Shown piece after piece: positions 32,704 to 46,827 of a DNA stretch of 64,000 nucleotides; position 1 is the stretch's first letter; each line of letters opens with the position of its first letter. A program made the translations under genes and the position numbers. The notes under the pieces are model-generated. The model was not told the DNA's origin, searched no databases, and saw only the letters and a list, made by a program, of their open reading frames with translations. Source of the DNA: Phycisphaerae bacterium (GTDB lineage: Bacteria; Planctomycetota; Phycisphaerae; Phycisphaerales; SM1A02); NCBI GenBank assembly GCA_018701395.1, contig JABIWU010000051.1, positions 895-64,894 of the forward strand. Direction: 5' to 3'.

Positions 32704-33702
32704 TTGGGAAGAATTCCTTTACTACTAATTTTATTCTTTGCTACCAACAGCTCTATTGCTTTGGCAGGCCCAGAAAATTTAAGTATTTTTGACCCTGTTT
32801 CACCCGCCGCTACACCAATTCGAGACTTGTTTATGCTTGTGTTTGGTGTTATTGGCATTATATTTGTCATCACTGAGGGCGCACTTATCTGGTCGATTAT
32901 TCGATACCGAGCAAAAGGCGATGAAACTAAAGAGCCCCCTCAGGTTTATGGCAGTAACCCTATTGAAGTTGCGTGGACTGTCATCCCAATCATCATTGTC
33001 TTCACCCTATTTCTTGTCACAACTAGAAGCATTTATTCATTAGATATGCAAGAAGCCCCTGAAGGCGCTTTAAAAGTCAAAGCAACTGGTCACCAATGGT
33101 GGTGGGAATTTGAGTATGAAGACCTTGGAATTACAACTGCTGGCGAGTTACATGTGCCAGAGGGCATACCTGTCTTTGTTGAACTTCGTTCTGCTGATGT
33201 CATCCACAGTTTCTGGGTACCCCGCCTTGCTGGAAAAATAGATTGTATTCCAAATCGAGAAAATCACTTATGGTTTCAAGCGGATGAAGTTGGCACCTGG
33301 TATGGACAATGTGCCGAGTTTTGCGGAAGCCAGCATGCAAAAATGCTTATCCGAGTAATCTCAGAAAAAGAAGTTGATTTTAATTCGTGGGTTGCAAATC
33401 AACAACTTCAAGCAGCAGAAATTCCCACAGAAGCAAATGGAAAAGAAACATTCCTCTCACTTGCATGCATCAATTGCCACAATATTCAAGGTGTAACAAC
33501 TGTGGGTGGTTTCGGTCCAGACTTAACGCACTTGATGTCACGCGACACGATCGCTTCAGGAGCTGCAAATAATTCAACTGACAATCTTCGTCTTTGGTTG
33601 CAGAATCCAGATTCAATTAAAGAAGGCGCTTTGATGCCAAACATGATGCTTTCAGACAAAGAAATAGATGCACTAATGGAGTATTTACAAACACTCAAAT
33701 GA
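32704..33702 (+). CDS. ctaC: Cytochrome c oxidase subunit II with C-terminal cytochrome c domain (caa3-type)
   Basis: CuA site HSFWVPRLAGKIDC...CAEFCGSQHAKM and a C-terminal haem c motif CINCHN...LMPNM. The start is TTG. Confidence 0.9.
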   Translation: MGRIPLLLILFFATNSSIALAGPENLSIFDPVSPAATPIRDLFMLVFGVIGIIFVITEGALIWSIIRYRAKGDETKEPPQVYGSNPIEVAWTVIPIIIVFTLFLVTTRSIYSLDMQEAPEGALKVKATGHQWWWEFEYEDLGITTAGELHVPEGIPVFVELRSADVIHSFWVPRLAGKIDCIPNRENHLWFQADEVGTWYGQCAEFCGSQHAKMLIRVISEKEVDFNSWVANQQLQAAEIPTEANGKETFLSLACINCHNIQGVTTVGGFGPDLTHLMSRDTIASGAANNSTDNLRLWLQNPDSIKEGALMPNMMLSDKEIDALMEYLQTLK

Positions 33703-35345
33703 CCCGCGAAGCCTACAACCCCCTTTCAAGCAAATTTCACGATTGGGTAGTGACCGTCGATCACAAAAAACTTGGCGTGATGTACATCGTCACTGGCATT
33801 TTGTACCTCATCGTTGCAGGCAGCGAAGCTCTTATGATGCGCTGGCAACTGGCTATTCCAAACAACGACATTCTGTCACCAGATACATTTAATGCCTTTT
33901 TTACAATGCACGGAACAACGATGATTTTCCTCGTTGGCATGCCAATTTTACTCGGGGCAGCAAACTATTTTATCCCTCTGATGATTGGCGCACGAGACAT
34001 GGCGTTTCCAAGGTTAAATGCGTTTGGTTTCTGGCTCTTTTTCTTTGGCGCTCTTTTACTGTACTTCAGTTTCCTTGGAGGACAAGGGCTCTCTGGCGAA
34101 GAGGGTGCTCCAAATGTAGGTTGGTTTGCGTACGCACCATTAACCTCAACAACTTTTTCGCCAGGGTCTGCAACTGACTATTGGGTAATCTCTTTGTTTG
34201 TTGCTGGCCTTGGTTCCATAATGACAGCAATCAATTTGGTTACAACTATTCTCACGATGCGTTGCGATGGCATGACGCTCATGAAGATGCCACTATTCGC
34301 TTGGATGATGCTCGTTGACGCTGCATTAATTCTCATCGTGCTTCCTCCACTTGCGGTAATCCAAATTATGTTGTTATTAGATAGGCAATTTGGAGCGCAC
34401 TTTTTTGACGCACAAGCTGGCGCTGACCCTTTAATTTGGCAACACTTATTCTGGTTTTTCGGGCACCCAGAAGTGTACATATTAATTATTCCTGGCTTTG
34501 CATATATCTCTGAAGTCATACCCGTTTTCTCACGAAAAGTTCTCTTTGGCTATCCACTTATGGTTGCCGCCACTGTCTCAATTGGTTTTATCTCTCTGGG
34601 CGTTTGGGCGCATCACATGTTTGCCGTCGGTCTATCCCCCGCTGTTCTCGCATACTTTTCTGGCGCAACCTTTTTAGTTGGCGTTCCAACTGGCATGAAA
34701 ATTTTTAATTGGATTGCAACCATGTGGGGTGGGCACATTCGATTTGCAACGCCGATGCTTTTTGCAACTGGTTTTGTTTCGATGTTCGTCCTTGGAGGTC
34801 TAACTGGAATCATGCTTGCAGTCGTCCCAATGGATTGGCAACTGTCAGATACGTACTTTGTTGTTGGGCATTTCCACTGGGTACTCTTTGGGGGCTTGCT
34901 GTTTGCAATTTTCTCTGGGTTCTTTTATTGGTTCCCAAAAGTTACTGGCAGACTGCTAAATGAAACGCTTGGCAAATGGCAGTTTTGGTTTTTGTTTGTT
35001 GGCTTCTTAGTAACTTTCGGCCCAATGCATATGGCTGGATTTGAAGGAATGCCAAGAAGAATCTATACCTTTATGCCTGGACGTGGTCTTGAATTATGGA
35101 ACATGCTTTCAAGCATCGGCGCTGCGATTCAAGTAGTTGGCTTTATTCTTTTTGTTATCAATGTGTTTTGGAGTTTACGCAAAGGCAAAATTGCTGGCGA
35201 TGATCCTTGGGATGCTTGGACACTTGAATGGTCCACTACCTCTCCTCCGCCGCCGTGGAATTTTGCTGAAACACCTCAAATTGCAAGCAGAAGACCGCTC
35301 TGGGATTTAAAACACCCAGATGATCCAGATTGGAAATACGAATGA
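33699..35345 (+). CDS. ctaD: Cytochrome c oxidase subunit I
   Basis: 548 aa, 12 TM, with WFFGHPEVYILIIPGF, HHMF and VGHFHWV motifs. The start overlaps the ctaC stop (ATGA). Confidence 0.95.
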   Translation: MTREAYNPLSSKFHDWVVTVDHKKLGVMYIVTGILYLIVAGSEALMMRWQLAIPNNDILSPDTFNAFFTMHGTTMIFLVGMPILLGAANYFIPLMIGARDMAFPRLNAFGFWLFFFGALLLYFSFLGGQGLSGEEGAPNVGWFAYAPLTSTTFSPGSATDYWVISLFVAGLGSIMTAINLVTTILTMRCDGMTLMKMPLFAWMMLVDAALILIVLPPLAVIQIMLLLDRQFGAHFFDAQAGADPLIWQHLFWFFGHPEVYILIIPGFAYISEVIPVFSRKVLFGYPLMVAATVSIGFISLGVWAHHMFAVGLSPAVLAYFSGATFLVGVPTGMKIFNWIATMWGGHIRFATPMLFATGFVSMFVLGGLTGIMLAVVPMDWQLSDTYFVVGHFHWVLFGGLLFAIFSGFFYWFPKVTGRLLNETLGKWQFWFLFVGFLVTFGPMHMAGFEGMPRRIYTFMPGRGLELWNMLSSIGAAIQVVGFILFVINVFWSLRKGKIAGDDPWDAWTLEWSTTSPPPPWNFAETPQIASRRPLWDLKHPDDPDWKYE

Positions 35346-35929
35346 ATACATCTACTTCCAATACATCATTAAATATGCTTCCTCCAGGACATCTTGGAAT
35401 GATTTCCGTCATCGTCACTGAAGTTTTCTTCTTCGCTTCGCTAATTGTTGTTTACCTTGCATACCTTGGCAAGAGCATAAGCGGCCCTATGCCAAGTGAC
35501 ACACTTGAACTTGGTTTAGTCAGCTTCAACACAATCGCTTTACTTGCAAGTTCAGCAACCATTGTCCTTGCACTCAAAGCGTTGCGAACTGGTAACAACG
35601 TTCGTTTTCTAACTTGGTTACTTTGCACAATTGCTTTAGGCGCTTGGTTTTTGATCGGAACTGGAATTGAGTGGAAGGGACTTATAGTCGACGACCACTT
35701 ACGGTTGCAGACGAACCTATTCGGCACAACGTTTTACACGCTTGTTGGGTTCCATGCCTTCCATGTGACGTTTGGCGTTTTTGCACTGTTCGTAATCTGG
35801 TGTTTAGGGTTAAAAGGTTGCATTAAACAAAAGCATCATCAAAATATTGAATATGTATCGTGGTATTGGCACTTTGTCGACACTGTTTGGATAGCAGTTT
35901 TCCTTGTTGTGTACGTGATTGGAAGATAA
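35342..35929 (+). CDS. ctaE: Cytochrome c oxidase subunit III
   Basis: Multi-TM with FYTLVGFHAFHVTFGV and WYWHFVDTVW. The ATG at 35342 overlaps the ctaD stop (ATGA). Confidence 0.85.
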   Translation: MNTSTSNTSLNMLPPGHLGMISVIVTEVFFFASLIVVYLAYLGKSISGPMPSDTLELGLVSFNTIALLASSATIVLALKALRTGNNVRFLTWLLCTIALGAWFLIGTGIEWKGLIVDDHLRLQTNLFGTTFYTLVGFHAFHVTFGVFALFVIWCLGLKGCIKQKHHQNIEYVSWYWHFVDTVWIAVFLVVYVIGR

Positions 35930-36721
35930 ATGACAACAACTAAAACTACAATTAAAGTTCCAAAACCAACTGCGTGGCCTCTCGTTGCAGCATTTGGTCT
36001 CACGCTAACATTTGCAGGTTTTTTAACTTCATACCTAGTTGGAATTATTGGAGGCATTCTCAGTGTAATAGGTTTTATTGGGTGGTTCAAAGACCGTTTC
36101 CCGAACAACCTAGAAATAACTGTTGAAGTTGAGGCGCACCACATCCCCGCTCCAGTTCACTCTACAAAAAGCACACACGAAGAACACCCACATCACCGTG
36201 CAATATTGCCACTTAAAATCCATCGTACTCAGTCAGGACTGATCGGTGGAATCGCAGGTGGCATCGCGATGCTTATTGTTTCAGTGATTGGCAGTTTCAT
36301 CATGCATGGTTCACCTTGGTATCCTTTCAATGTTATGTCTGCGTCAGTCATGCACTCTATAACTGAGCAAAACTTAACCAATTTCAATGCAATTGCATTT
36401 GTTGTTGCCCTTGGAATTCACGCAACACTTTCCATTGGCATTGGCTTAGTGTATGGCGTTGTGCTACCACTCCTACCTAAACACCCTATCATTCTTGGCG
36501 CGCTTATCATCCCCTTCATCTGGAGTTTCTTACTATACGCAACCATGAACACCCTCAATCCTGTCCTGAATGAAACCGTCAACTGGAGTTGGTTCCTCGT
36601 TACGCAATTTGTATTTGGATTTGTTGCAGGAATTGTCGTTTCAAAAAGCGAAAAAATACAAACACTACAATTCAAAGCATTCGCAGAACGCGCAGGCATT
36701 GAGACAGGCAAAAATGATTAA
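35930..36721 (+). CDS. Operon-embedded multi-pass membrane protein of unknown function with a His-rich loop
   Basis: 263 aa with about 6 hydrophobic helices. The loop HHIPAPVHSTKSTHEEHPHHR lies at 36137-36199. The gene starts directly after the ctaE stop (TAAATG). Confidence 0.65.
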   Translation: MTTTKTTIKVPKPTAWPLVAAFGLTLTFAGFLTSYLVGIIGGILSVIGFIGWFKDRFPNNLEITVEVEAHHIPAPVHSTKSTHEEHPHHRAILPLKIHRTQSGLIGGIAGGIAMLIVSVIGSFIMHGSPWYPFNVMSASVMHSITEQNLTNFNAIAFVVALGIHATLSIGIGLVYGVVLPLLPKHPIILGALIIPFIWSFLLYATMNTLNPVLNETVNWSWFLVTQFVFGFVAGIVVSKSEKIQTLQFKAFAERAGIETGKND

Positions 36722-37370
36722 AACAATTCTACTTTCAGTATGTATTTTTCTTTTACTAAGTTGCGGAAAACCCTCTGTTGATGATCGTCCAATACGTCCA
36801 ATCGAAGTCCTTAACTTCGACACACTTTTTGCACAACGCTGTTCGGGTTGCCACGGGAATGAAGGTGCTGGAAGTGCATCAATTGCACTGCACGATTCGG
36901 CGTTTATGCACATCGCAGGGAAGTCAACTATTCGAGACCTAATTGTGAACGGTCGTAAAAATACCTTAATGCCCTCTTTCCAAAGTAATACTGGTAATCC
37001 TTTATCAGATGCACAAATAGACGCGCTTGTCATTGGGATGTCCGAAAACTGGGGAGGAGAGATTCCACCTTGGGCTGAAGGAAGACGATATGAAATTCAA
37101 AAAGGCGATGCCGGAAGAGGCCGAGGAGCATTTGCCGATTTATGTGCAAGTTGCCACGGCCCTGATGGCACCGGTGCAGTTGCCGGCTCTGTAGTCAATG
37201 CCTCCTACTTACGACTAGTGAGTGAACAATATTTACGAAGCGTCATTCTTTTCGGAAGACCAGAACTTGGCATGCCAAATTTTGCCTGCAAAACAGATGA
37301 CAAAACAATAGACGACATCGTTGCATGGCTTTTAACGCATAAAGAAAATTGGAGTAATGCCAATGACTAG
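36714..37370 (+). CDS. Dihaem c-type cytochrome (lipoprotein-like signal)
   Basis: MIKTILLSVCIFLLLSCGK signal, two CxxCH motifs (CSGCH, CASCH) and distal Met motifs (LMPSF, GMPNF). The ATG at 36714 overlaps the upstream stop by 8 nt. Confidence 0.8.
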   Translation: MIKTILLSVCIFLLLSCGKPSVDDRPIRPIEVLNFDTLFAQRCSGCHGNEGAGSASIALHDSAFMHIAGKSTIRDLIVNGRKNTLMPSFQSNTGNPLSDAQIDALVIGMSENWGGEIPPWAEGRRYEIQKGDAGRGRGAFADLCASCHGPDGTGAVAGSVVNASYLRLVSEQYLRSVILFGRPELGMPNFACKTDDKTIDDIVAWLLTHKENWSNAND

Positions 37371-37848
37371 ACGCACCTTATTAAATAGACTTGCACTTGG
37401 AATAAATGCACTTGCGGCTCTACTTGTTGGAGTGCCTCTCGTTGGTTTTGTATTTGCTCCTGCAGTTGACAAAGCAAAGAATAAATGGATCTCCATTGGC
37501 AAACTTGAAGAATTCACTGCAGGACAAACCAAACTTGCAACGTATATAAATCCTTATCTAGTTCCGTGGGATAACGAAGTTGCGAAAGTTCCATGTTGGG
37601 TTCGACGAATTGACGAAACCACATTTCAAGTGTTCGCAATTAATTGCGCACATCTTGGTTGCCCAGTAAAGTGGTTTGCAGAATCACAACTTTTCATGTG
37701 TCCTTGCCATGGTGGTGTGTATTACGCAGATGGTTCAAGAGCATCTGGGCCTCCACCTCGAGGGCTTTTTGAATACCAATATCGTTTAGAAAACGGACAT
37801 CTAGAAGTTCGTGGTGGCCGCCTTCCAACAATTCAGGAGAGCGTCTAA
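37357..37848 (+). CDS. Rieske [2Fe-2S] subunit of a cytochrome bc/b6c-type complex
   Basis: Tat-like N-terminus MPMTRRTLLNRLALG and the cluster boxes CAHLGCPV and CPCHGGVY. Confidence 0.9.
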   Translation: MPMTRRTLLNRLALGINALAALLVGVPLVGFVFAPAVDKAKNKWISIGKLEEFTAGQTKLATYINPYLVPWDNEVAKVPCWVRRIDETTFQVFAINCAHLGCPVKWFAESQLFMCPCHGGVYYADGSRASGPPPRGLFEYQYRLENGHLEVRGGRLPTIQESV

Positions 37849-38949
37849 GTGTCAAACCCATTCAAAACAATTGCCACGTGGGTCAACGAGCGAATGCAAT
37901 TGCAATCGTCGATCGGTCCAATCATGTCGCATCGAGTTCCGCTTCGCGCTCGATGGTTTTACGTTTTTGGATCCGCAACACTCACTTGCTTCTTGATGCA
38001 AATTCTAACCGGCATTCTGCTTTCAACCGTTTATGTTCCCAGCGCAGGGGAAGCGTACCAATCTCTTGAATACTTAAATTATGTACAACCCTTAGGCTGG
38101 TACCTTCGAGCGCTGCATGCGTTCTTTGGAAATGCCATGGTGTTTATGCTTCTTTGCCATCTTGTACAAGTCGTTATTTTCGCATCGTATAAATACCCAA
38201 GGGAATTAACGTGGGTATTTGGCGTAGTTTTGTTTTTGTGTGTACTTGCAATGGCATTCTCTGGGCAAATTCTTCGTTGGGACCAAGATGCTTACTGGGG
38301 ACTAGGAATCGGCGCTTCTATGGCTGGAAGGATTCCGATTCTTGGGCCATACGTGGTGCACTTAATGTTAGGCGGTCCGATTATTGGCGGCGAAACTCTT
38401 TCGCGCTTCTTCGCACTCCACGTTTTCGTTTTGCCACTAACCATTGCAGGAGTTATTTTTATTCATGTAATGCTTGTTCTAAAAAATGGCATTTCTGATC
38501 CACCAAGATCAGGCGTTGTTGTTAATCCAAAAACCGAACGAGAGGATTACAAAAAGAGAATTTCTGGTGATGAAGGAACCACTTTTTTCCCAACGCCAAT
38601 TGCACGAGATGCTATTTTCAGTGGCGGACTTGTCATTGTAGTTGCCTTACTTGCCGCAATGCTCGGACCAACTGGACCAAACGGTATTCCAGACCCCACC
38701 ATTATTGACACTTCACCAAAACCAGACATTTGGTTCATGTTCCTCTTTTCTTCTCTTGCTCTCCTGCCCCCAGCAATTGAAACGTTTCTTATTCTTACCG
38801 CTCCTGCCGTGTTAATTCTCGCGCTGTTTTCAGTTCCATTCCTCAGCAACAGCGGTCAACGGCACATTAGTAAACGCCCAGTAACTGCACTTCTTCTTAT
38901 ATTTATTTTCACCGTGTATTTCGTATTAACTTGGCTTGGTTACCAATAA
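37849..38949 (+). CDS. Cytochrome b (fused b6 plus subunit IV-like)
   Basis: GTG start immediately after the Rieske stop. Bis-His helix pairs RALHAFFGNAMVFMLLCHL and FFALHVFVLPLTIAGVIFIHV. 366 aa, multi-TM. Confidence 0.9.
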   Translation: MSNPFKTIATWVNERMQLQSSIGPIMSHRVPLRARWFYVFGSATLTCFLMQILTGILLSTVYVPSAGEAYQSLEYLNYVQPLGWYLRALHAFFGNAMVFMLLCHLVQVVIFASYKYPRELTWVFGVVLFLCVLAMAFSGQILRWDQDAYWGLGIGASMAGRIPILGPYVVHLMLGGPIIGGETLSRFFALHVFVLPLTIAGVIFIHVMLVLKNGISDPPRSGVVVNPKTEREDYKKRISGDEGTTFFPTPIARDAIFSGGLVIVVALLAAMLGPTGPNGIPDPTIIDTSPKPDIWFMFLFSSLALLPPAIETFLILTAPAVLILALFSVPFLSNSGQRHISKRPVTALLLIFIFTVYFVLTWLGYQ

Positions 38950-38964
38950 CCTTGGTCACCAAAA

Positions 38965-39309
38965 ATGCAAGCATGGAGCAGTGACGAAACGCCCATCCAT
39001 TTCATAGAAGGAAGAACACCATTGGAATTAGCTGGTGCCGCTGCCTTTCAATATAAACAGTGCAGAAACTGTCATCAACTTGGTGGCATAGGCGGTGAAC
39101 GTGGACCTGAACTTGATTCGATTGCAACTCGAAAAACAACAAACGAACTTATCCGTCAGGCAATACAAGGCGGAGGAAATATGCCAACATATGGACATAA
39201 TCTTTCTCCGGAAGAGCTAATCTCAATCGTTGCCTTTTTATCCACCCTGCATCCTGAAAATGAAAGCCCAGCTCAAACTGCTGATGTTTCATTGAATCCA
39301 ACAAACTAA
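38965..39309 (+). CDS. Monohaem class I c-type cytochrome
   Basis: CRNCHQLGG haem-binding motif and GGGNMPTYG distal Met region. 114 aa. Confidence 0.8.
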   Translation: MQAWSSDETPIHFIEGRTPLELAGAAAFQYKQCRNCHQLGGIGGERGPELDSIATRKTTNELIRQAIQGGGNMPTYGHNLSPEELISIVAFLSTLHPENESPAQTADVSLNPTN

Positions 39310-39318
39310 ACTACGTCT

Positions 39319-41508
39319 ATGTCTGATTCATTCCAAGCAGCATTGCGTTTATGGACACTTGATTGGTGGACATTACTCGGGGCTGCACTAACATGTGCCT
39401 TGTACTATCGCGGCTGGAGTGGACTACACCGAAGACAACCGACAAAATACACCAAGGCAAGATTAGTCTCATTCATCGCAGGTATTGCGATTCTCGTAAT
39501 TGCAATTGTTTCACCTCTTGATACGCTTGCCGGTGTCTTGTTACAAGTACACATGGCACAACATGTGTTGCTAATGATGGTCATCCCACCACTGCTTTGG
39601 TTGAGTTGGCCAGCTCTTCCTCTTCTCTGTGGCTTGCCATTTACAATTCAAAAATATTGGATCGGTCCATTTTTAATTTCCAAGGGAATGCATTCGTTCG
39701 GTCGATTTCTTGTGCATCCTATTGTTGCATTGACATTATTTGTTTGCACCACTTGGATATGGCATTACCCTCGTGCTTACCAACTGGCACTTGTTAGTGA
39801 CACGTGGCATTCCATCGAGCATGCTTGTTTCCTATGCACAGCATTGTTATTTTGGTTTCCAATTATTGCGCCACAACCTTCAAAACCGGCTTGGCCACAG
39901 TGGGCAATGATTCCATACTTACTGGTAGCGGACATTCAAAACACTATTTTTTCAGCTTTCTTTAGTTTTGCAAGCGAGCCAATTTATTCTTTCTACCCAG
40001 ACCTTGGCTTGTTCGGAACTACGCTACTTCGAGATCAAGCCGCTGCAGGCGGACTTATGTGGGTTGCTAGTTCTGCTATTTTCTTAATACCTGTAGCAAT
40101 CATTTTGAAGAACATGCTTACGAATAAGGAAATGCTTGAGAAACCAACACCTTCAATTCAAAGTACACGTGTACCTCAAACCAAAGCATCTCGTTCGCGT
40201 TGGTTATATTCGATAAAAACAAGAAGAGCCGCACAACTTTTCATGTTTACACTAGCAGTTTTTACAATTGCAGATGGTCTGCTAGGACCAGAACTAGCGC
40301 CAATAAATTTGGCTGGAATATTACCCTGGATTTGGTGGAGAGGTCTTGTAATAATCGCCATACTTGTTGCTGGAAACTTTTTTTGTTATGCCTGTCCGTT
40401 TATGTTTGTTCGCGATCTAGCAAAACTGTTGCCTATTCCTAAAACTCGTTGGCCTCAAACCTTTCGCTCAAAGTGGCTAGCCGTTGCACTGTTTGTTGTT
40501 TGGCTTATGGTGTACGAAGTAATTTCTCCATGGTCATCACCTGCTTTTACAGCGTGGATCATTATCGGTTATTTTATTACTGCATTTTGCGTTGACGCTT
40601 TTTTTACTGGCGCAGCATTTTGCAAATGGGTTTGCCCTATTGGCCAATTTCATTTTGTTCTTTCTATATTTTCTCCATTTGAAATCAAAGCAATTTCAAA
40701 ATCAACTTGCGATACTTGTACAACTCAAGAATGTATTCGCGGGAATGGTTCGCCTATTGCTAGTAGAGGTTGCGAATTAGAACTTTTCGTTCCAACAAAA
40801 CAAGGAAACTTAGATTGCACGTTTTGCCTTGATTGTGTCCGAGCTTGCCCTCATGACAATGTTGCTCTTACTACTTCTTTCCCAGGCATCGACTTAGTCA
40901 ATGGAACATTCCGAGGCTCCATTGGTTCACTTCAACGTTCTGACTACACCGCACTCATGCTAGTTGTCGTCTTTGGAGCATTTGCAAATGCTGCCGGCAT
41001 GATTACGCCAGTTACTAACGCAATTAATAATACATCGCAATGGGTCGGCGCACCTTCAACGGCGCTCATAACTGCTATTTTCATTCTTTCTGCTTCTTTT
41101 ATTATTCCGAGTTTACTTTGCCTTTTGTGTAAGCGATTTGCTCGCACAACTTTTCAGGTCGCGTGGTCACTTGTTCCACTTGGCGTTGCAATGTGGGCAG
41201 CGCATTTGCTTTTTCATTTTTTCTCTTCGTACAAAACAATATTACCAGTTACAAAACGTGCCTTGTACGATATCGGGCTTACGAATATACCCGAAACAAT
41301 GTGGGAAATTACTTCGCCCCCAACTTGGCTTCTGCAAGGCGAACTCTTTTTGATAGTTATTGGTTTCCTTGCTTCTATTGCAATTTGTATTAGGCTTACG
41401 AACACGTTCCGCGAAAGAGCGCCGTGGTGTTTGCTTTCTATATTGTTATTTGTTTCAGGTGCTTGGATTCTTCTTCAGCCTATGCAAATGCGAGGAATGA
41501 TTGGATGA
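39319..41508 (+). CDS. Fusion protein: caa3-type oxidase assembly factor CtaG (COG3336-like) plus FixG/CcoG/NapH-like polyferredoxin membrane domain
   Basis: The N-terminal ~270 aa has VHMAQHVLLMMVIPPLLWLSWP, HPIVALTLF..WHYP and WHSIEHACFLCTALLFWFPII (Caa3_CtaG pattern). The C-terminal ~430 aa has CYACP (40384-40398), CKWVCP (40621-40638), CDTCTTQEC and CTFCLDCVRACP (40816-40851). Confidence 0.75.
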   Translation: MSDSFQAALRLWTLDWWTLLGAALTCALYYRGWSGLHRRQPTKYTKARLVSFIAGIAILVIAIVSPLDTLAGVLLQVHMAQHVLLMMVIPPLLWLSWPALPLLCGLPFTIQKYWIGPFLISKGMHSFGRFLVHPIVALTLFVCTTWIWHYPRAYQLALVSDTWHSIEHACFLCTALLFWFPIIAPQPSKPAWPQWAMIPYLLVADIQNTIFSAFFSFASEPIYSFYPDLGLFGTTLLRDQAAAGGLMWVASSAIFLIPVAIILKNMLTNKEMLEKPTPSIQSTRVPQTKASRSRWLYSIKTRRAAQLFMFTLAVFTIADGLLGPELAPINLAGILPWIWWRGLVIIAILVAGNFFCYACPFMFVRDLAKLLPIPKTRWPQTFRSKWLAVALFVVWLMVYEVISPWSSPAFTAWIIIGYFITAFCVDAFFTGAAFCKWVCPIGQFHFVLSIFSPFEIKAISKSTCDTCTTQECIRGNGSPIASRGCELELFVPTKQGNLDCTFCLDCVRACPHDNVALTTSFPGIDLVNGTFRGSIGSLQRSDYTALMLVVVFGAFANAAGMITPVTNAINNTSQWVGAPSTALITAIFILSASFIIPSLLCLLCKRFARTTFQVAWSLVPLGVAMWAAHLLFHFFSSYKTILPVTKRALYDIGLTNIPETMWEITSPPTWLLQGELFLIVIGFLASIAICIRLTNTFRERAPWCLLSILLFVSGAWILLQPMQMRGMIG

Positions 41509-41936
41509 TTCGATTCCTACTTTTTTGCATACTCTTTGTTTCGCCTTGCTTCGCAGACAATGGACATTTGATTAGTACTTTCAAAACAGATACGTACAAC
41601 GTCGCTATCTTTGCTGAACCATGGCCACTACGAGTTGGTGACATTCAATTTCGCGCAATCGTGACCGACCATGCTGGGAATTTACATATTGACCCCGATA
41701 TTGTGCCATTTGATGGGCAAATACTCACAATCAACATCGCTGAGCCAAGCACGTACACGCTTGAATATTTCCTTGCGGGACTACCTCAAAAGCCCATTCA
41801 ACTTGCAATAGCGCCGAAGGCGTCAATCTTTTCTTTGTATTGGGAAGTGTGGGCATCCTTGATTATTGGGCTAATATTCATCATTTTAAGAGAAATACTC
41901 GCCAAAAACCAAGCCCGTAGGTATCCTAATAGGTAA
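41505..41936 (+). CDS. FixH/YtkA-like small secreted/membrane-anchored protein
   Basis: Signal MIRFLLFCILFVSPCFA, an Ig-like pattern EPWPLRVGDIQFRAIVTDHAGNLHIDPDI and a C-terminal TM WASLIIGLIFIIL. The ATG overlaps the upstream stop (ATGA). The family call is tentative. Confidence 0.45.
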   Translation: MIRFLLFCILFVSPCFADNGHLISTFKTDTYNVAIFAEPWPLRVGDIQFRAIVTDHAGNLHIDPDIVPFDGQILTINIAEPSTYTLEYFLAGLPQKPIQLAIAPKASIFSLYWEVWASLIIGLIFIILREILAKNQARRYPNR

Positions 41937-41948
41937 GGAACACCATTT

Positions 41949-42221
41949 ATGGCAAAAGCAATAGCAGACCCAGAAGAAATCAGACGATTTGCACACGACT
42001 TAAAGCGTTTCAACGATGACTTAACGCATCAGTTGCAACTCATGCGCTCTCGCATGTCATCCCTGTCCCAAAGTTGGCGAGACCAAGAGCAACGAAAGTT
42101 TGAAGAAGAATTCGACTTTACCGTCAAGGCAATGGATCGCTTCGCAAAATCATCCGCCGAACAGATTCCGTTCCTTCTTCGTAAGGCCCAGCGCATCGAA
42201 GAATATTTACAACAACGGTAA
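41949..42221 (+). CDS. WXG100-like helical-hairpin protein (W-R-D variant)
   Basis: 90 aa with no signal peptide. Two predicted helices flank a central SQSWRDQEQRKFEEEF (W at 42075-42077), matching the W-x-G-x5-F layout of ESAT-6/WXG100 proteins with G replaced by D. AAGGA lies upstream of the ATG. Confidence 0.6.
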   Translation: MAKAIADPEEIRRFAHDLKRFNDDLTHQLQLMRSRMSSLSQSWRDQEQRKFEEEFDFTVKAMDRFAKSSAEQIPFLLRKAQRIEEYLQQR

Positions 42222-42224
42222 CAC

Positions 42225-42833
42225 ATGTCACAAGCCGCAAATGTCCGTTCTCTTGAATCGCTAGTTGAGTTTCGTACAGCGCTTGTTAAATATATCGATA
42301 AAGCGAAGCGTTCAATTTCAACAGCAGATTCTGAAGTTTCTCGAACACAAATATGGCTTCAATCTACACAGCCGCTACATTGGAAACATGAAATCAGAAG
42401 AAGCGAGGAAAAACTCGCCCAAGCAAAAAGTGAATTATTTCGTGCAACTATTTCTCAACCCGACAATCCAAGAGGTCCAACTGATCAAATTCGGCTTGTA
42501 AAAAAACGGCAAGATGAAATAAAATTTGCTGAAGAAAAACTTGAACGAACCAAACGATGTTCAAGACATCTTGAACATGAACTCAATGAATATCGAGGGG
42601 CTATGACTCCATTAAGCAGTTCGCTTGACGGTGACATGAACAAAGCCGTAAGCATTTTAGAACGCGCAATAAGTTCACTCGAAGCATACATCGCGACTAC
42701 TTCGACCTCTGCAGACGAACTACTCGGCGACGCACAACAAGTCAAATCCATCGCACGAAAAGGTAAAGACCAAACAAAGGAGGTCGACGATGAGCATGCC
42801 GACAGCGACAGCGCAACTGACAAAAGCAACTAA
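42225..42833 (+). CDS. Coiled-coil protein of unknown function with acidic C-terminal tail
   Basis: 202 aa, heptad-rich (EEKLAQAKSELFRA, EIKFAEEKLERTK), ending in KEVDDEHADSDSATDKSN. It starts 3 nt after the preceding stop. Confidence 0.6.
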   Translation: MSQAANVRSLESLVEFRTALVKYIDKAKRSISTADSEVSRTQIWLQSTQPLHWKHEIRRSEEKLAQAKSELFRATISQPDNPRGPTDQIRLVKKRQDEIKFAEEKLERTKRCSRHLEHELNEYRGAMTPLSSSLDGDMNKAVSILERAISSLEAYIATTSTSADELLGDAQQVKSIARKGKDQTKEVDDEHADSDSATDKSN

Positions 42834-43002
42834 AGCCATGCTGTATCAATGGCAAGTGGCTAACGAGCATTGGAATGACCCCGTGAGCAAACGGCTTGAA
42901 GAGAAACACATCGAGCCCCTTCTCCTAGCTGTTCGTAGTGCTATCGGAGCGATGGATTCAATGGGCGAAACTATCGCCAAAGCGCAGAATGAGTGTTCCT
43001 GA
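42790..43002 (+). CDS. Second small WXG100-like protein (W-N-D variant), paralogous to 41949-42221
   Basis: 70 aa. NEHWNDPVSKRLEEKH (W at 42871-42873) aligns with SQSWRDQEQRKFEEEF of the first protein. A perfect AAGGAGG (42777-42783) sits 6 nt before the ATG at 42790, even though this start overlaps the upstream gene by 44 nt. Confidence 0.6.
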   Translation: MSMPTATAQLTKATKAMLYQWQVANEHWNDPVSKRLEEKHIEPLLLAVRSAIGAMDSMGETIAKAQNECS

Positions 43003-43029
43003 GTGCTACAATGCTAATGCATAACTTCT

Positions 43030-46000
43030 ATGACTAAATCATCACTTCAACATCAAAAAAAGCAGATTGCCTTTGTTCGCTCATTAATTCGAGAAACAAC
43101 TTCTAGCGAGCTAGAACTACAAAATCGAATCAAAATTGAACGTGCCTCTGCTATTGAATTGCAAAAACAAAACCTTGAAGCATGTGTAGAGAAATTTAAG
43201 CAAAAGCGTGAAACTGCTGGGCAACGCAAAGAGGGAACGATAACCGAGGTTCAAGATCGACGCGAACTTGAACCTGAATTACTCAAGCAAAAAAACGATC
43301 AACGAATCGTTGAAATTAATTCACAAGCTGAAGATTTAACTGAAGATACAGAAACTAAATTAGGCGAAGCAATCTGGCTTGCAGAATCTGTTTTCGAAGG
43401 TGCTATTTCAGTTCCAAGAGAGCGCGCTCAAGAAGAACAAAATGCATTAGAAGATTGCAAAGAAGCTCTCCACTTACTCATTGAGGAAGCACCGAAGACG
43501 CTATCTAAATTACGTCAAAAGCAAGACACTCATCTAACCGAATGTACAAAAACCGCAGATGACACCATGGCAAATTATGTCAAAGGCGCAACTGAAGCCC
43601 TAGGCGCTATTCAAAATGATCCTAAAGCAAAATGGTGTTCTGGTTTTAGGCCAGTATTAGTTGTTGGAATTGCCGCAGCAGCTGGAGTTGGCGTCGGAGG
43701 AGCGTATACAAATTGGGCTCTTACGTTGCCATTTTTTGCATTCGCAATTGGAGCAATATTAATCTCAGTACTAGCAATTATTTTCACTTTTGCTTCTGGT
43801 CGTAATTCCGTCAAGAAAAAGTATGCGCAGTTCTCATCATGCATTCAATCAGCAAAACTCTCCTACGAGACTTCTCGTAATTCAATCGACGTAAAGCGAC
43901 GCGCAGAAGAAAAAGGGATCACTACTACTCGTGATATTGAAATCAAAAAAGCGGAAGACAAATACAAACCAAGACTAGACAACGTTGAAAGGCTTCTCAA
44001 AAAAGACATTGATAAAGAGAAAGTGAAATTCAAAAGTGTCGGAGCCAAACTAGCTACTAAAATTGAAACCGACTTAGCCGAAGCATCCTCAACCTTTGAA
44101 GCAAGTATTGTCAAATGCAACAGTGACGAACAAGCCGAGATTGATCAAATAAAAACCACTTTCACAGAGACGATGCAGTCCATTGATAATGAAGAACGTG
44201 ACACAATGGAAGCGTTGTCAAACCGTTGGAACTCCAACTTTGCATCGTTTCACGCAGACACAGACAGCCAAATACAGAGTGCGATTTCTAATCACCCCAC
44301 TTGGGATTCTAGTTGGGACGCTTGGGAACCCCCAGCGCAATCTATCATGGATGTTCCCGTCGGCGCATTCGAAGTAGACCTTGCCAACATTGCTGGCAAT
44401 TTACCATGCAGTGAATCCTTCCAATTACAAGAGGCGACTGTGATTTCGCTTCCGCTGAATGCTACGCTTCCAAATCACACATCCGTACTTGTATCTTCAA
44501 CAGGAAAGCGTCGAAGCGACTCAATTGCTTTTTTACAAAGCACAGTGTTGCGAATGCTCACTTCTATTCCACCTGGAAAAGTGAAATTCACATTGATTGA
44601 CCCCGTTGGTCTTGGCCAAAGTTTTGCGAGCGTGCTTCATCTATCGGATTACGAAGAGTCTCAGTTACTCGATCGCGCTTGGACTGAACCAAGACATATC
44701 GAAACGCAACTCGCACGACTTACTGAGCACATGGAAACTGTTATTCAAAAGTATCTACGAAATGAATTTGAATCGATTGATGCGTACAACGAACAAGCGG
44801 GAGAAATTGCAGAGCCCTATCGCTTTTTAGTAATCGCTGATTTACCGAACAACTTTTCTGAAACAGCGGCAAAGCGCTTAACCAGCATTATTACCAGCGG
44901 TGCTCGTTGTGGCGTGCATGTCATTATACATCGAGATATTTCACTACCTCTTCCTGCTGGTATAGACGAGGACACATTACGAAGAATTTCCGTACGCATT
45001 GTTGAAGATGATGCCAGATTCTGCATTGACGAAGAAGAACTTCGAGACTTGCCACTTACAATTGAATCTCCGCCAGCTGAAGATATTGCTTCAGCAATCG
45101 TTAAGCAAGTTGGCGAAACTGCTGACAGCACGCATCGAGTCGAGGTTCCGTTCAGTGTCATTTCTCCAGCAGCCGATAAAATTTGGTCGCGGTCAACAAA
45201 AGATAAGGTTGAAATTCCACTTGGAAAATCTGGCGCTACAAGACTTCAAAACTTAACGCTTGGCAGAGGAACTGCACAGCACGCACTTATTGCCGGAAAA
45301 ACTGGCTCAGGCAAATCAACACTCTTACATGTTTTAATTACGAACCTTGCGCTTTGGTATAGCCCAGACGAAATAGAATTTTATCTAGTCGACTTTAAAA
45401 AAGGCGTCGAATTCAAAACCTACGCAACACATAAATTGCCGCACGCACGAGTCGTCGCCGTCGAAAGCGACCGTGAATTCGGCATAAGTGTTTTACAAAG
45501 AATTGATGCTGAATTAAAACGTCGCGGTGAATTATTTCGAGAGTTAGGCGTGCAAGATATTGCTGGGTTTAGAGACAAATCCACAGAACGAATGCCACGA
45601 ATTCTTCTTATCATTGATGAGTTTCAAGAACTTTTCGTTGACGATGACAGAGTTGCACAAGAAGCGAGCTTATTACTTGACCGCTTAGTTCGGCAAGGCC
45701 GAGCGTTTGGAATCCACGCAATCATGGGTTCTCAAACTCTAGACGGTGCCTATACCTTGAGTCGTTCAACTATGGGGCAGATGGCTGTACGCGTTGCGTT
45801 GCAGTGTTCAGAACAAGACAGTTACATTATTCTAAATGAAGACAATGCAGCCGCTCGTCTTCTTTCAAGGCCCGGCGAAGCCATTTACAACGATGCCGCA
45901 GGTAATATTGAAGGCAATAGTCCATTCCAAGTTGTTTGGTTGAATGACAAAGAGCGTGAAATGTTCATCAAAGATTTAATCACGCGTGACAAAGGCAACG

Positions 46001-46827
46001 CGCGCGATATGGTTGTGTACGAAGGAAATCAACCAGTCCATCTTGCAGAAAACCCGGCGTACAAAGCAGCGAGCAATACTGAAAAACCACTCGCATCCAA
46101 AGCGTGGCTTGGTGGGGCGATGGCGATTAAAGAAGACACGTCAGCCACGTTCCGTACTGCCTCTGCAAGCAATTTGCTGATTGTCGGTCAACAAGATGAA
46201 ACAACAACTTGCATGTTATCGAGTGTATTGCAATCGCTTGATAAGCAGTTCCCAAAAGGGGATGCTACGTTCTACTTGCTTGATGGCACCCCGCAAGATC
46301 AACCACATGCTTCAATTCTTCCAGATACTGTTCATTCGATGTCGATTCCCCCAACGCTCGTTGGCGTGCGAGATATTGAAGGAGCAATGGCAACACTCTA
46401 CGCTGAGTTACAAAAAAGACTTTCAGATGGAGTAAGTGATTCACCAACTGTTTTCCTTTGCATCAATGCACTGCATCGCTTCAGAGACATGCGCCGCAAC
46501 GAAGATGATTACGGATTTTCAACGGGCGATGAAGAAAAGCAAAAAACACCTGCTCAGGTGCTTGCTGAATTACTCAAGGAAGGCCCGACGCTCGACATGC
46601 ATGTCATCGTTTCAACCGATACTCTCTCCAACCTGAACAGAGCGTTCGATAGACAGTCGTTGCGAGAGTTTGATATGCGCGTCCTCTTGCAGATGGGTGC
46701 GAACGATTCCACAAATCTTATCGATATGCCAGATGCTTCGAAACTTGGCATGCACCGTGCTCTTCTCTATAGTGAAGAAACTGGTACAATAGAACCCTTC
46801 AGGCCGTATGCTTATCCCGAAAGTTAA
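43030..46827 (+). CDS. Membrane-anchored FtsK/SpoIIIE-family ATPase with three P-loop domains (EssC/EccC-like)
   Basis: 1265 aa. It has a ~200-aa N-terminal coiled coil, a TM hairpin (about 43654-43800) and a second coiled-coil region. Three FtsK-like domains follow. D-a is degenerate (STGKRRSDS; RFLVIADLP). D-b is canonical, with Walker A GKTGSGKST (45295-45321) and Walker B LLIIDEFQEL (45601-45630). D-c is degenerate (LLIVGQQDETTT; VFLCINALHRF). Confidence 0.85.
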   Translation: MTKSSLQHQKKQIAFVRSLIRETTSSELELQNRIKIERASAIELQKQNLEACVEKFKQKRETAGQRKEGTITEVQDRRELEPELLKQKNDQRIVEINSQAEDLTEDTETKLGEAIWLAESVFEGAISVPRERAQEEQNALEDCKEALHLLIEEAPKTLSKLRQKQDTHLTECTKTADDTMANYVKGATEALGAIQNDPKAKWCSGFRPVLVVGIAAAAGVGVGGAYTNWALTLPFFAFAIGAILISVLAIIFTFASGRNSVKKKYAQFSSCIQSAKLSYETSRNSIDVKRRAEEKGITTTRDIEIKKAEDKYKPRLDNVERLLKKDIDKEKVKFKSVGAKLATKIETDLAEASSTFEASIVKCNSDEQAEIDQIKTTFTETMQSIDNEERDTMEALSNRWNSNFASFHADTDSQIQSAISNHPTWDSSWDAWEPPAQSIMDVPVGAFEVDLANIAGNLPCSESFQLQEATVISLPLNATLPNHTSVLVSSTGKRRSDSIAFLQSTVLRMLTSIPPGKVKFTLIDPVGLGQSFASVLHLSDYEESQLLDRAWTEPRHIETQLARLTEHMETVIQKYLRNEFESIDAYNEQAGEIAEPYRFLVIADLPNNFSETAAKRLTSIITSGARCGVHVIIHRDISLPLPAGIDEDTLRRISVRIVEDDARFCIDEEELRDLPLTIESPPAEDIASAIVKQVGETADSTHRVEVPFSVISPAADKIWSRSTKDKVEIPLGKSGATRLQNLTLGRGTAQHALIAGKTGSGKSTLLHVLITNLALWYSPDEIEFYLVDFKKGVEFKTYATHKLPHARVVAVESDREFGISVLQRIDAELKRRGELFRELGVQDIAGFRDKSTERMPRILLIIDEFQELFVDDDRVAQEASLLLDRLVRQGRAFGIHAIMGSQTLDGAYTLSRSTMGQMAVRVALQCSEQDSYIILNEDNAAARLLSRPGEAIYNDAAGNIEGNSPFQVVWLNDKEREMFIKDLITRDKGNARDMVVYEGNQPVHLAENPAYKAASNTEKPLASKAWLGGAMAIKEDTSATFRTASASNLLIVGQQDETTTCMLSSVLQSLDKQFPKGDATFYLLDGTPQDQPHASILPDTVHSMSIPPTLVGVRDIEGAMATLYAELQKRLSDGVSDSPTVFLCINALHRFRDMRRNEDDYGFSTGDEEKQKTPAQVLAELLKEGPTLDMHVIVSTDTLSNLNRAFDRQSLREFDMRVLLQMGANDSTNLIDMPDASKLGMHRALLYSEETGTIEPFRPYAYPES

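What the first reader, a model, noticed from the sequence alone, without database searches (positions are those of the whole stretch)
39319..41508. Single-polypeptide fusion of the caa3 oxidase assembly factor CtaG with a FixG/CcoG-like polyferredoxin
The N-terminal third carries the Caa3_CtaG histidine motifs (HMAQH, WHSIEH). The remainder carries the membrane CxxCP/CxxxCP motifs (CYACP, CKWVCP) and two ferredoxin-type Cys clusters (CDTCTTQEC..., CTFCLDCVRACP), typical of FixG/CcoG/NapH proteins. CcoG has been described as a cupric reductase feeding Cu(I) to cbb3 oxidase, and CtaG is implicated in copper-centre assembly of caa3 oxidases. A covalent fusion sitting at the end of a caa3 operon suggests a dedicated module that reduces copper and inserts it into an aa3-type enzyme. 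I do not recognise this as a described protein.
Basis: partly seen in the sequence, partly recalled or inferred. Interest (0 to 1): 0.6.

Follow-up and report, generated by a model that had tools for sequence, protein, structure and literature searches.

The report
CtaG fused to membrane iron-sulfur protein
The last large gene of a cytochrome bc-caa3 oxidase operon really does encode one 729-residue membrane protein that joins the copper-site assembly factor CtaG to an iron-sulfur electron-transfer module. The fusion is conserved in hundreds of genomes from at least three phyla, no study of it was found, and it probably reduces copper and hands it to the oxidase.

Summary

- **Domains.** Residues 27-266 are a clear Caa3_CtaG domain (Pfam E 2e-53). 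Residues ~299-530 form a four-helix membrane core with two membrane-face Cys motifs and eight Cys for two [4Fe-4S] clusters.
A conserved five-helix C-terminal domain carries invariant Met/His residues (M561, M625, H629, H633, M722, M724).
- **Fusion is real.** The two halves share one frame with no stop in all 80 species-level loci examined (Planctomycetota, Verrucomicrobiota, Acidobacteriota, Binatia). All 12 Cys and 5 CtaG His are invariant.
- **Interpretation needs correcting.** The iron-sulfur half is nearest NapH/MauN and "FesM-like" polyferredoxins. The window protein does not hit the CcoG model at all.
- **Gene position.** It is followed by a translationally coupled YtkA/FixH-like anchored gene, homologous in 64 of 69 loci.
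- **Genome background.** The genome has no cbb3 oxidase, Cox11, PCuAC or CcoG.

Best reading (about 0.55): a copper-reducing and copper-delivering assembly module for the A-type oxidase. Databases auto-annotate it as "CtaG/polyferredoxin", but I found no paper describing it.

The parts
39319..41508 (+). Whole fusion gene, 729 aa, predicted 16 TM helices with N-terminus and C-terminus on the outer side
   Evidence: AlphaFold2 model has pLDDT 86.6 and pTM 0.71. Positive-inside count over 81 homologues gives about 40 K+R in the 'in' loops against about 7 in the 'out' loops.
39397..40116 (+). Caa3_CtaG domain (aa 27-266), seven TM helices. Invariant H78, M79, H82, H149, H164, H168, D239 lie near the outer membrane face.
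   Evidence: Pfam PF09678, E 2.2e-53. Residues invariant in 81 of 81 sequences. Topology.
40123..40212 (+). Cytoplasmic linker (aa 269-298), rich in Lys/Arg, variable in length, predicted disordered
   Evidence: pLDDT below 50 at aa 271-291. Length varies across the alignment. Mean of 8.1 K+R.
40213..40677 (+). NapH-type four-helix membrane core (aa 299-453) with C356xxC359P and C435xxxC439P at the cytoplasmic membrane face
   Evidence: NCBIfam TIGR02163 NapH/MauN, E 2.5e-12, below its cut-off. Cys invariant in 81 of 81. Topology.
40678..40908 (+). Cytoplasmic ferredoxin domain (aa 454-530). Eight invariant Cys (464, 467, 472, 485, 500, 503, 506, 510) are enough for two [4Fe-4S] clusters.
40915..41505 (+). 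C-terminal five-helix domain (aa 533-729). Conserved residues are M561, a one-face helix ladder M625-H629-H633, and the terminal motif Q720-P-M722-Q-M724-R-G on the outer side. Candidate Cu(I) site or conduit.
   Evidence: Invariance. The domain profile finds 1282 clusters (E<=1e-3); in the intact-looking proteins among the best 150 it lies at the C-terminus. It is shared with the Deinococcus and cyanobacterial polyferredoxins, including H629.
41505..41936 (+). Coupled downstream gene, 143 aa: signal peptide, six-strand beta sandwich, C-terminal TM anchor. Belongs to a YtkA/FixH-like family.
   Evidence: ATGA overlap with the fusion's stop. Homologous in 64 of 69 loci by jackhmmer. Relatives hit Pfam YtkA, L081 at 30.9 bits against a cut-off of 25.9, and FixH weakly. 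Model pLDDT 88.1.
32704..39309 (+). Upstream operon: coxB (with fused cyt c), coxA, coxC, conserved 263-aa membrane protein, dihaem cyt c, Rieske, cyt b, cyt c
   Evidence: The same order lies directly upstream of the fusion in about 55-61 of 80 loci.

Best explanation
The gene encodes a dedicated biogenesis factor for the A-type (caa3) cytochrome c oxidase encoded upstream. It combines three activities in one membrane protein.
1. The cytoplasmic 2x[4Fe-4S] domain takes electrons from an unknown cytoplasmic donor. It passes them to the two Cys pairs (CxxCP, CxxxCP) at the inner membrane face, where Cu(II) is bound and reduced to Cu(I). This is inferred from CcoG.
2. Cu(I) is kept protein-bound. 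It moves towards the outer face along the Met/His ladder of the C-terminal five-helix domain (M625-H629-H633, then M561, M722, M724). This step is inferred.
3. Cu(I) is handed to the His cluster of the CtaG domain (H78, H82, H149, H164, H168) and to the co-translated YtkA/FixH-like anchored protein. These load CuB, and perhaps CuA, of the oxidase. This step is also inferred.

Shown here: the architecture, the topology by the positive-inside rule, the invariance of the ligand candidates, the conserved pairing with the downstream gene and with the oxidase operon, and the genome's lack of alternative factors. Not shown: any activity, copper binding, or the direction of copper flow.
For: - **CtaG domain.** Well above the Pfam threshold. 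It is the only CtaG in the genome.
- **Conservation.** The fusion is in one frame in 80 of 80 loci from several phyla. All 12 Cys, all 5 His and the Met/His set are invariant or nearly so.
- **Topology.** Fe-S domain, Cys motifs and linker lie inside. His motifs, the Met/His ladder and the C-terminal PMQM tail lie outside.
- **Synteny.** The bc-caa3 genes lie directly upstream in about three quarters of loci.
- **Partner gene.** A YtkA/FixH-like gene follows in 64 of 69 loci, often overlapping the stop codon. YtkA (CtaK) is implicated in CuA assembly in B. subtilis (PMC13344008).
- **Genome background.** No Cox11, PCuAC, CcoG or cbb3 oxidase. One Sco and two A-type oxidases are present.
- **Relatives without CtaG.** They still sit beside anchored periplasmic proteins that look metal-binding: a His-rich protein in Deinococcus ficus and a YtkA-like lipoprotein with an MNHAGM motif in L090.
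- **Precedent.** CcoG, in the same superfamily, is an experimentally shown cupric reductase with two [4Fe-4S] clusters and two Cu sites (PMC7558416). Whether A-type oxidase assembly needs an enzymatic cupric reductase is stated as open (PMC13344008).
Against: - There is no biochemical evidence at all.
- By sequence the iron-sulfur half is closer to NapH/MauN, which is a quinol dehydrogenase and not known to reduce copper, than to CcoG.
- NCBI labels fragments of the family 'FesM'. FesM was linked to cyclic electron flow, not to copper (title cited in PMC9324425).
- The downstream Ig-like family has no conserved His, Met or Cys. That fits a FixH-like scaffold better than a copper chaperone.
- No redox cofactor is evident that could carry electrons across the membrane. 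Reduction must therefore happen at the inner face, and Cu must then be moved outwards. That step is conjecture.
- About 15-20% of loci lack the oxidase genes next to the module.
Confidence: 0.55

Rival explanations
1. The polyferredoxin plus five-helix half is a respiratory electron-input module: a ferredoxin (or other cytoplasmic donor):quinone oxidoreductase, or a NapH-like quinol dehydrogenase. It would feed or tap the quinone pool for the adjacent bc-caa3 chain. Its fusion to CtaG would only reflect co-assembly in one supercomplex.
For: The nearest named models are NapH/MauN, hit by 24 of 24 homologues, and NapH in plasmids. [quoted passage not shown] The gene lies in an operon of electron-transfer proteins.
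Against: All matches are far below the family cut-offs (46.8 against 213 bits). No NapG-like periplasmic partner is in the cluster. A covalent fusion to an assembly factor, kept across several phyla, is hard to explain for a catalytic subunit. The module keeps its YtkA-like partner when it is away from the respiratory genes. The invariant Met/His set is typical of Cu(I) ligands, not of quinone sites (general knowledge).
Confidence: 0.13
2. The iron-sulfur module supplies reducing power for something other than copper during oxidase maturation. Candidates are keeping the CuA-site or Sco cysteines reduced, or donating electrons to haem A synthase.
For: CxxC-type motifs can act as thiol-disulfide centres. 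One locus has a thioredoxin-like gene just upstream of the module (L077). Haem A synthesis needs an electron donor (general knowledge).
Against: The Cys motifs and Fe-S clusters are predicted to be cytoplasmic, whereas the CuA and Sco cysteines are periplasmic. The module is fused to CtaG, not to CtaA or Sco. Sco is encoded elsewhere, beside the second oxidase.
Confidence: 0.1
3. The Fe-S clusters are a redox or oxygen sensor that gates a CtaG-dependent copper channel. They would regulate copper insertion rather than carry out catalysis.
For: Cyanobacterial relatives carry cNMP-binding and sigma-54-type AAA domains in front of the same polyferredoxin plus TM module, which suggests signalling uses of the module.
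Against: Two clusters plus two membrane Cys pairs, all invariant, resemble an electron wire more than a sensor. There is no output domain here.
Confidence: 0.07
4. The single ORF is an artefact (a frameshift or assembly error) that joins two separate genes.
For: Some database entries show separate 'CtaG' and 'polyferredoxin' proteins.
Against: All 80 loci have the halves in one frame. Of the four apparently split entries I re-examined, three (L002, L089, L091) come from assemblies in which the same gene is broken across frames; the fourth (L090) has no CtaG part at all. More than 3400 full-length clusters exist.
Confidence: 0.01

Closest known systems
Caa3_CtaG (Bacillus subtilis CtaG; Pfam PF09678, TIGR02737)
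   Same: The N-terminal 270 residues match the Pfam model over its full length. They carry the conserved His motifs and lie in a caa3-type oxidase cluster. The genome lacks Cox11, as Bacillus does (the control gives no B. subtilis hit).
   Different: The protein scores far below the NCBIfam equivalog cut-off (63 against 279 bits). It is covalently joined to about 430 further residues that B. subtilis CtaG lacks. Even for B. subtilis CtaG the function (CuA or CuB) is not settled (PMC13344008).
CcoG/FixG/RdxA, cupric reductase of cbb3 oxidase biogenesis (Rhodobacter capsulatus; TIGR02745)
   Same: A membrane polyferredoxin with two cytoplasmic [4Fe-4S] motifs and two Cys motifs at the membrane. 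It is encoded next to a haem-copper oxidase and next to an Ig-like anchored protein (compare CcoH/FixH). It is the only member of the superfamily with a shown copper-reducing activity.
   Different: There is no significant match to the CcoG model and no FixG_C Ig domain. Instead there is a five-helix Met/His domain. The gene is associated with an A-type, not a C-type, oxidase, and no ccoGHIS context is present (the genome lacks ccoN and any CcoG hit; CcoH, CcoI and CcoS were not searched).
NapH/MauN/NosH quinol-dehydrogenase-type ferredoxins (TIGR02163)
   Same: This is the best HMM match. It has the identical core layout: four TM helices, two CxxCP-type motifs and a C-terminal di-cluster domain, all cytoplasmic.
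   Different: The score is well below the family cut-off. No NapG/MauM-type partner and no nitrate reductase are present in the window (the rest of the genome was not searched for them). The protein has an extra C-terminal domain and an N-terminal CtaG.
'FesM-like' polyferredoxins (NCBI label; Synechococcus PCC 7002 FesM, Plant Physiol 2005) and the 452-aa Deinococcus ficus '4Fe-4S binding protein'
   Same: They align with the window's C-terminal half through the ferredoxin domain and into the extra TM helices. This includes the A-H-x-x-F/x-H motif, and in Deinococcus a terminal P-M-V-H-R.
   Different: Identity is only about 25%. These proteins have no CtaG domain. The cyanobacterial ones carry cNMP/AAA domains. 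I could not obtain the type FesM sequence or paper, so the label is untested.
Corynebacterium glutamicum CtaG-CopD fusion
   Same: It is another natural fusion of Caa3_CtaG to a copper-handling membrane module, and it has been used as Rosetta-stone evidence for CtaG's partners (PMC13344008).
   Different: The partner there is a CopD-type putative importer, not an iron-sulfur protein.

Membership tests
Caa3_CtaG (PF09678) | Match to the Pfam model above its gathering score | tested here: met
   181.5 bits against 27.7, model positions 1-234 of 237
Caa3_CtaG (PF09678) | Conserved histidine motifs in the TM helices | tested here: met
   H78, H82, H149, H164 and H168 are invariant in 81 of 81 sequences
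Caa3_CtaG (PF09678) | Equivalog of B. subtilis CtaG (TIGR02737 cut-off) | tested here: not met
   63.3 bits against a cut-off of 279.35
Caa3_CtaG (PF09678) | Required for active caa3 oxidase | not testable with these tools
   Only genomic linkage to coxBAC is shown
CcoG/FixG (TIGR02745) | Match to the CcoG family model | tested here: not met
   No hit in the window's genome at E<=0.01. It is not listed for P0001 at E<=1. It is weak in 4 of 24 homologues, best E 2e-5.
CcoG/FixG (TIGR02745) | C-terminal periplasmic Ig-like FixG_C domain | tested here: not met
   No FixG_C hit. The C-terminus is five TM helices.
CcoG/FixG (TIGR02745) | Two [4Fe-4S] motifs plus two membrane Cys motifs | tested here: met
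   Twelve invariant Cys in the expected pattern
CcoG/FixG (TIGR02745) | Cu(II) reductase activity | not testable with these tools
   Needs biochemistry
CcoG/FixG (TIGR02745) | Association with cbb3 oxidase and ccoGHIS | tested here: not met
   No ccoN in the genome. The neighbours are A-type oxidase and bc genes.
NapH/MauN (TIGR02163) | Match above the family cut-off | tested here: not met
   46.8 bits against 213. The hit is consistent in 24 of 24 homologues.
NapH/MauN (TIGR02163) | Four TM helices, two CxxCP motifs and a di-cluster domain, all cytoplasmic | tested here: met
NapH/MauN (TIGR02163) | Periplasmic ferredoxin partner (NapG/MauM) and cognate enzyme nearby | tested here: not met
   None among the operon genes
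FesM-like polyferredoxin | NapH-like core followed by an extra TM domain with a conserved His | tested here: met
   Alignments to the Deinococcus and Pseudanabaena proteins over about 380-400 residues include H629
FesM-like polyferredoxin | Homology to the type FesM of Synechococcus PCC 7002 | not tested
   The paper and sequence are not held. The only basis is the NCBI label on fragments. A search from the cyanobacterial relative returned no protein named FesM.
YtkA/FixH-like (downstream gene) | Match to PF13115 or PF05751 | tested here: inconclusive
   The window's own copy gives no hit. A homologue linked by jackhmmer passes the YtkA threshold (L081, 30.9 against 25.9 bits). Others hit weakly, and FixH hits weakly.
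YtkA/FixH-like (downstream gene) | Conserved copper ligands | tested here: not met
   No conserved His, Met or Cys. Only a conserved A-D-G-G after the signal peptide.

The most novel reading that the evidence does not exclude
The fusion and its small partner form a self-contained copper import-reduce-export loop. No soluble chaperone and no P-type ATPase would be needed. The CopD-related CtaG domain would take up periplasmic Cu(II). The Fe-S and Cys module would reduce it at the inner membrane face. The Met/His five-helix domain would return Cu(I) to the outer face, directly into the nascent oxidase. This would be a new kind of redox-driven metal relay. It would also explain the so far unknown role of Caa3_CtaG.
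Probability: 0.2. Interest if true: 0.8.

Novelty: new variant of a known kind. Interest (0 to 1): 0.6.

Why it matters
How copper reaches the CuB and CuA sites of A-type oxidases in bacteria that lack Cox11 is unresolved. Even for B. subtilis CtaG it is not known which site it serves. A 2026 study states that it is unknown whether Cu(II) reduction during oxidase assembly is enzymatic, and that Firmicutes have no CcoG homologue (PMC13344008).

A natural fusion conserved across phyla ties CtaG to an iron-sulfur electron-transfer module and to a YtkA-like protein. This is Rosetta-stone evidence that redox chemistry is part of CtaG-dependent copper insertion. It also offers one polypeptide on which reduction, binding and hand-over of copper can be tested.

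The fusion further defines a large uncharacterised polyferredoxin subfamily (NapH-type core plus Met/His TM domain, at least 1282 clusters at 50% identity). Its members seem to work with anchored periplasmic proteins that look metal-binding.

Tried and rejected
1. **Structure search.** Foldseek of the full model against the PDB gave nothing significant (best E 0.15). A profile search of PDB sequences gave no hit. No solved relative exists. Model coordinates are not exposed, so I could not measure distances between the candidate ligands.
2. **Unfused pairs.** I looked for genuinely separate CtaG and polyferredoxin genes. Three of the four 'stand-alone' hits on long contigs that I re-examined are the fused gene broken by frame changes (L002, L089, L091). 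Only L090 looks like a real CtaG-less version, and it too has one frame change.
3. **Fusions to the downstream protein.** Longer proteins in the representative search with sequence after the C-terminal domain are out-of-frame read-throughs, not fusions.
4. **FesM.** The 2005 paper is not held. Searching from the cyanobacterial relative returned 504 proteins, none of the 120 best (listed) named FesM. The label stays untested.
5. **Marckmann et al. 2019 (CcoG).** Not held. CcoG facts are taken from the review PMC7558416.
6. **The Deinococcus gene upstream of the FesM-like gene.** I tested whether it is a CtaG. It is not. It is a His-rich anchored periplasmic protein.
7. **Fold of the small downstream protein.** Only generic Ig-like matches appeared.
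Full report
**1. The observation**

The window has a single ORF at 39319-41508 on the + strand. It has an ATG start, encodes 729 aa and has no internal stop.

Pfam places a full-length Caa3_CtaG domain at residues 27-266 (E 2.2e-53, 181.5 bits against a cut-off of 27.7). It gives only weak Fer4 hits around residue 500. NCBIfam adds NapH/MauN (TIGR02163) at residues 344-517 with E 2.5e-12, and the NapH equivalog at E 9e-9. Both are far below their cut-offs.

**2. Is the fusion real?**

Yes.
- A search of the 5.8-billion-protein collection returned more than 3400 clusters. Most of the 120 best (listed) cover essentially the whole length, at 40-71% identity. Several are already labelled by JGI as 'cytochrome c oxidase assembly factor CtaG/ferredoxin' or '/polyferredoxin'.
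- A scan of one genome per species found at least 567 genomes with a relative. The best 80 loci come from Planctomycetota (Phycisphaerae, Isosphaeraceae, Gemmataceae, Pirellulales, Planctomycetaceae), Verrucomicrobiota, Acidobacteriota (including the cultured Acidobacteriaceae bacterium KBS 96) and Binatia.
- In all 80 loci the CtaG part and the iron-sulfur part lie in the same reading frame with no stop between them.
- Database entries that look like separate polyferredoxins on long contigs proved, for three of the four I re-examined, to be the same gene broken by frame changes (L002, L089, L091).
- Within the window's own phylum the gene is rare. Only 5 of 151 sampled genomes have any Caa3_CtaG, and 2 of those are fused. 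Yet the whole cluster is syntenic across phyla, which suggests lateral spread.

**3. Anatomy**

An AlphaFold2 model built from 103 homologues is confident (mean pLDDT 86.6, pTM 0.71). It has one disordered stretch at residues 271-291, which is the linker. Sixteen TM helices are predicted.

I counted Lys+Arg per loop over 81 homologues. Loops on one side carry about 40 and loops on the other about 7. This fixes the topology as follows.
- **Outer side:** the N-terminus and the C-terminus.
- **Cytoplasm:** the linker, both Cys motifs (C356xxC359P and C435xxxC439P) and the ferredoxin domain.
- **Near the outer face:** the CtaG histidines (H78, H82, H149, H164, H168).

Residues 299-530 reproduce the NapH layout: four helices, two CxxCP-type motifs and a di-cluster domain. 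Eight invariant Cys (464, 467, 472, 485, 500, 503, 506, 510) are enough for two [4Fe-4S] clusters.

They form five further TM helices with strongly conserved residues: R540, D542, M561, W626, H629 and H633 invariant, M625 in 78/81, and the terminal motif Q-P-M722-Q-M724-R-G in 77-80/81. M625, H629 and H633 are spaced i, i+4, i+8, so they lie on one face of a helix that runs from inside to outside. M561 and the terminal Met pair are on the outer side by the topology. This pattern is typical of Cu(I) ligands. Whether they cluster in space could not be checked, because model coordinates are not exposed.

A profile of this domain finds 1282 clusters (50% identity level) at E<=1e-3 and 249 at E<=1e-30. 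In the intact-looking proteins among the best 150 listed, the domain lies at the C-terminus.

**4. Neighbours**

Upstream, with overlaps or gaps of at most 15 nt, lie eight genes:
- coxB with a fused cytochrome c domain
- coxA
- coxC
- a conserved 263-aa membrane protein
- a dihaem cytochrome c
- a Rieske protein
- cytochrome b
- a monohaem cytochrome c

The same order directly precedes the fusion in about 55-61 of 80 loci. In the remainder the fusion lies in unrelated contexts.

Downstream, overlapping the stop codon (ATGA), is a 143-aa gene at 41505-41936. It encodes a signal peptide, a six-strand beta sandwich and a C-terminal TM anchor (model pLDDT 88.1). A gene in this position is present in nearly all loci, and 64 of 69 are homologous by iterative search. 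The window's own copy hits no Pfam family. Relatives hit YtkA (L081 at 30.9 bits, above the 25.9 cut-off) and hit FixH weakly. The family has a conserved A-D-G-G right after the signal peptide but no conserved His, Met or Cys. Foldseek gives only generic Ig-like matches.

**5. Which polyferredoxin family?**

The evidence points away from CcoG/FixG in the strict sense.
- The CcoG model does not hit the window's genome at E<=0.01.
- Over 24 homologues, NapH/MauN is hit by 24, NosR by 5 and CcoG by 4.
- A tblastn of the C-terminal half against 72,556 annotated plasmids returned three kinds of hit and no FixG: a Deinococcus ficus 452-aa '4Fe-4S binding protein', cyanobacterial proteins with cNMP-binding and sigma-54-type AAA domains in front of a polyferredoxin, and then NapH.
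- The first two of these align with the window protein through the ferredoxin domain and on into the extra helices. The alignments include H629, and in Deinococcus also H633 and a terminal P-M-V-H-R.
- NCBI labels fragments of the fused family 'FesM', after a cyanobacterial membrane iron-sulfur protein (reference in PMC9324425). I could not obtain that paper or sequence, so 'FesM-like' is a borrowed label.

In short, the half belongs to the NapH/MauN/NosR/CcoG superfamily. It forms a separate subfamily defined by the added Met/His TM domain.

**6. Genome background**

The assembly is 1.94 Mb and 97.7% complete. Its relevant content is listed below.

| Feature | Result |
|---|---|
| Caa3_CtaG | one, the fused gene |
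| Sco | one, on another contig beside a second coxB/coxA |
| PCuAC | none |
| Cox11 | none |
| cbb3 oxidase (ccoN) | none |
| Other polyferredoxin of this kind | none |
| P1B-type ATPases | two |

The iron-sulfur module therefore cannot be serving a cbb3 oxidase. The copper toolkit resembles that of Bacillus (Sco, CtaG, YtkA-like) with a redox module added.

**7. How it most likely works**

Shown here: the architecture, the topology (by rule, not experiment), the invariant ligand candidates, the conserved operon and the conserved partner.

Inferred: electrons enter the cytoplasmic clusters and reach the Cys pairs at the inner membrane face, where Cu(II) is reduced. This follows CcoG, which has two [4Fe-4S] clusters and two Cu sites and reduces Cu(II) but not Fe(III) (PMC7558416). 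Cu(I) then stays protein-bound and moves via the Met/His domain to the outer face. There the CtaG His cluster and the Ig-like partner deliver it to the oxidase.

Support from relatives that lack CtaG: the Deinococcus gene is preceded by an overlapping gene for a His-rich, anchored periplasmic protein, near DUF305 and DUF3105 genes. In L090 a 45%-identical CtaG-less version lies next to a YtkA-like lipoprotein with an MNHAGM motif. The constant partner of the polyferredoxin is thus an anchored periplasmic protein that looks metal-binding. CtaG is the lineage-specific addition that ties it to the oxidase.

I put about 0.55 on this reading. I put about 0.85 on the broader statement that it is an oxidase biogenesis factor.

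**8. Rivals**

- **A respiratory electron-input module** (ferredoxin:quinone or NapH-like). This fits the best HMM match and the FesM label. It does not explain the fusion to an assembly factor, the Met/His set or the YtkA-like partner.
- **A reductant supplier for thiols or haem A synthesis.** This conflicts with the cytoplasmic position of the Cys motifs.
- **A redox sensor.** This is possible but unparsimonious.
- **An artefact.** This is excluded.

**9. Novelty**

Both halves belong to known kinds, and annotation pipelines already see both domains. I found no paper that describes or tests the fusion. A 2026 study of copper routing in B. subtilis discusses CtaG-CopD and Sco-CtaM fusions as clues but does not mention this one. 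It states that the need for an enzymatic cupric reductase in A-type oxidase assembly is open (PMC13344008).

I class the finding as a new variant of a known kind, with moderate to high interest. Earlier notes of this scan on other genomes describe the same family. I treated them as leads and re-derived the points here.

Noticed in passing
window 41949-46827: Only 12 nt after the small gene come a WXG100-family protein (41949-42221, Pfam E 1e-7), a 202-aa coiled-coil-like protein and a 1265-aa protein that looks like an FtsK/EssC-type ATPase (my reading of its sequence, not scanned). All are on the same strand. Together they resemble a type VII-like secretion set in a Planctomycetota-like genome. 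The WXG100 gene also lies a few hundred bases to about 1.2 kb downstream of the module in 8 related loci.
   Followed up: partly
window 35930-36721: A 263-aa multi-helix membrane protein with a His-rich stretch (HEEHPHH) lies between coxC and the dihaem cytochrome c. It is conserved at this position in 57 of 80 loci across phyla. Its only Pfam hit is a weak one to DUF6789. It may be an extra subunit or assembly factor of the bc-caa3 unit.
   Followed up: partly
L086 (own genome, contig C64, about 141-144 kb): A second A-type oxidase locus holds a 287-aa Sco/SenC-domain protein followed directly by another coxB with a fused cytochrome c, and then coxA. The genome therefore has two A-type oxidases but only one CtaG, the fused one.
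   Followed up: partly
L084 5934-8215 (Deinococcus ficus plasmid pDFI1): A stand-alone FesM-like polyferredoxin (452 aa) overlaps by 4 nt the end of a gene for a signal-peptide protein. That protein has a long His-rich insert and a C-terminal anchor. DUF305 and DUF3105 genes are nearby, so this looks like a metal-handling pair without CtaG.
   Followed up: partly
L090 3472-6089 (Planctomycetota MAG): A CtaG-less version of the polyferredoxin (45% identical) lies between a YtkA-like lipoprotein (motif MNHAGM) and a secreted protein whose predicted mature end starts H-D-G. There is a LysR regulator upstream and no oxidase genes.
   Followed up: partly
L085 4555-7248: Cyanobacteria commonly encode proteins that put a cNMP-binding domain and a sigma-54-type AAA domain in front of the same polyferredoxin plus TM module. 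They are annotated as transcription regulators although most of the protein is membrane-embedded.
   Followed up: no
own phylum: Only 5 of 151 sampled genomes of the window's phylum have any Caa3_CtaG, and none of the same order does. Yet the ten-gene bc-caa3-CtaG cluster is syntenic in Verrucomicrobiota and Acidobacteriota. This suggests the whole cluster moves between phyla.
   Followed up: no
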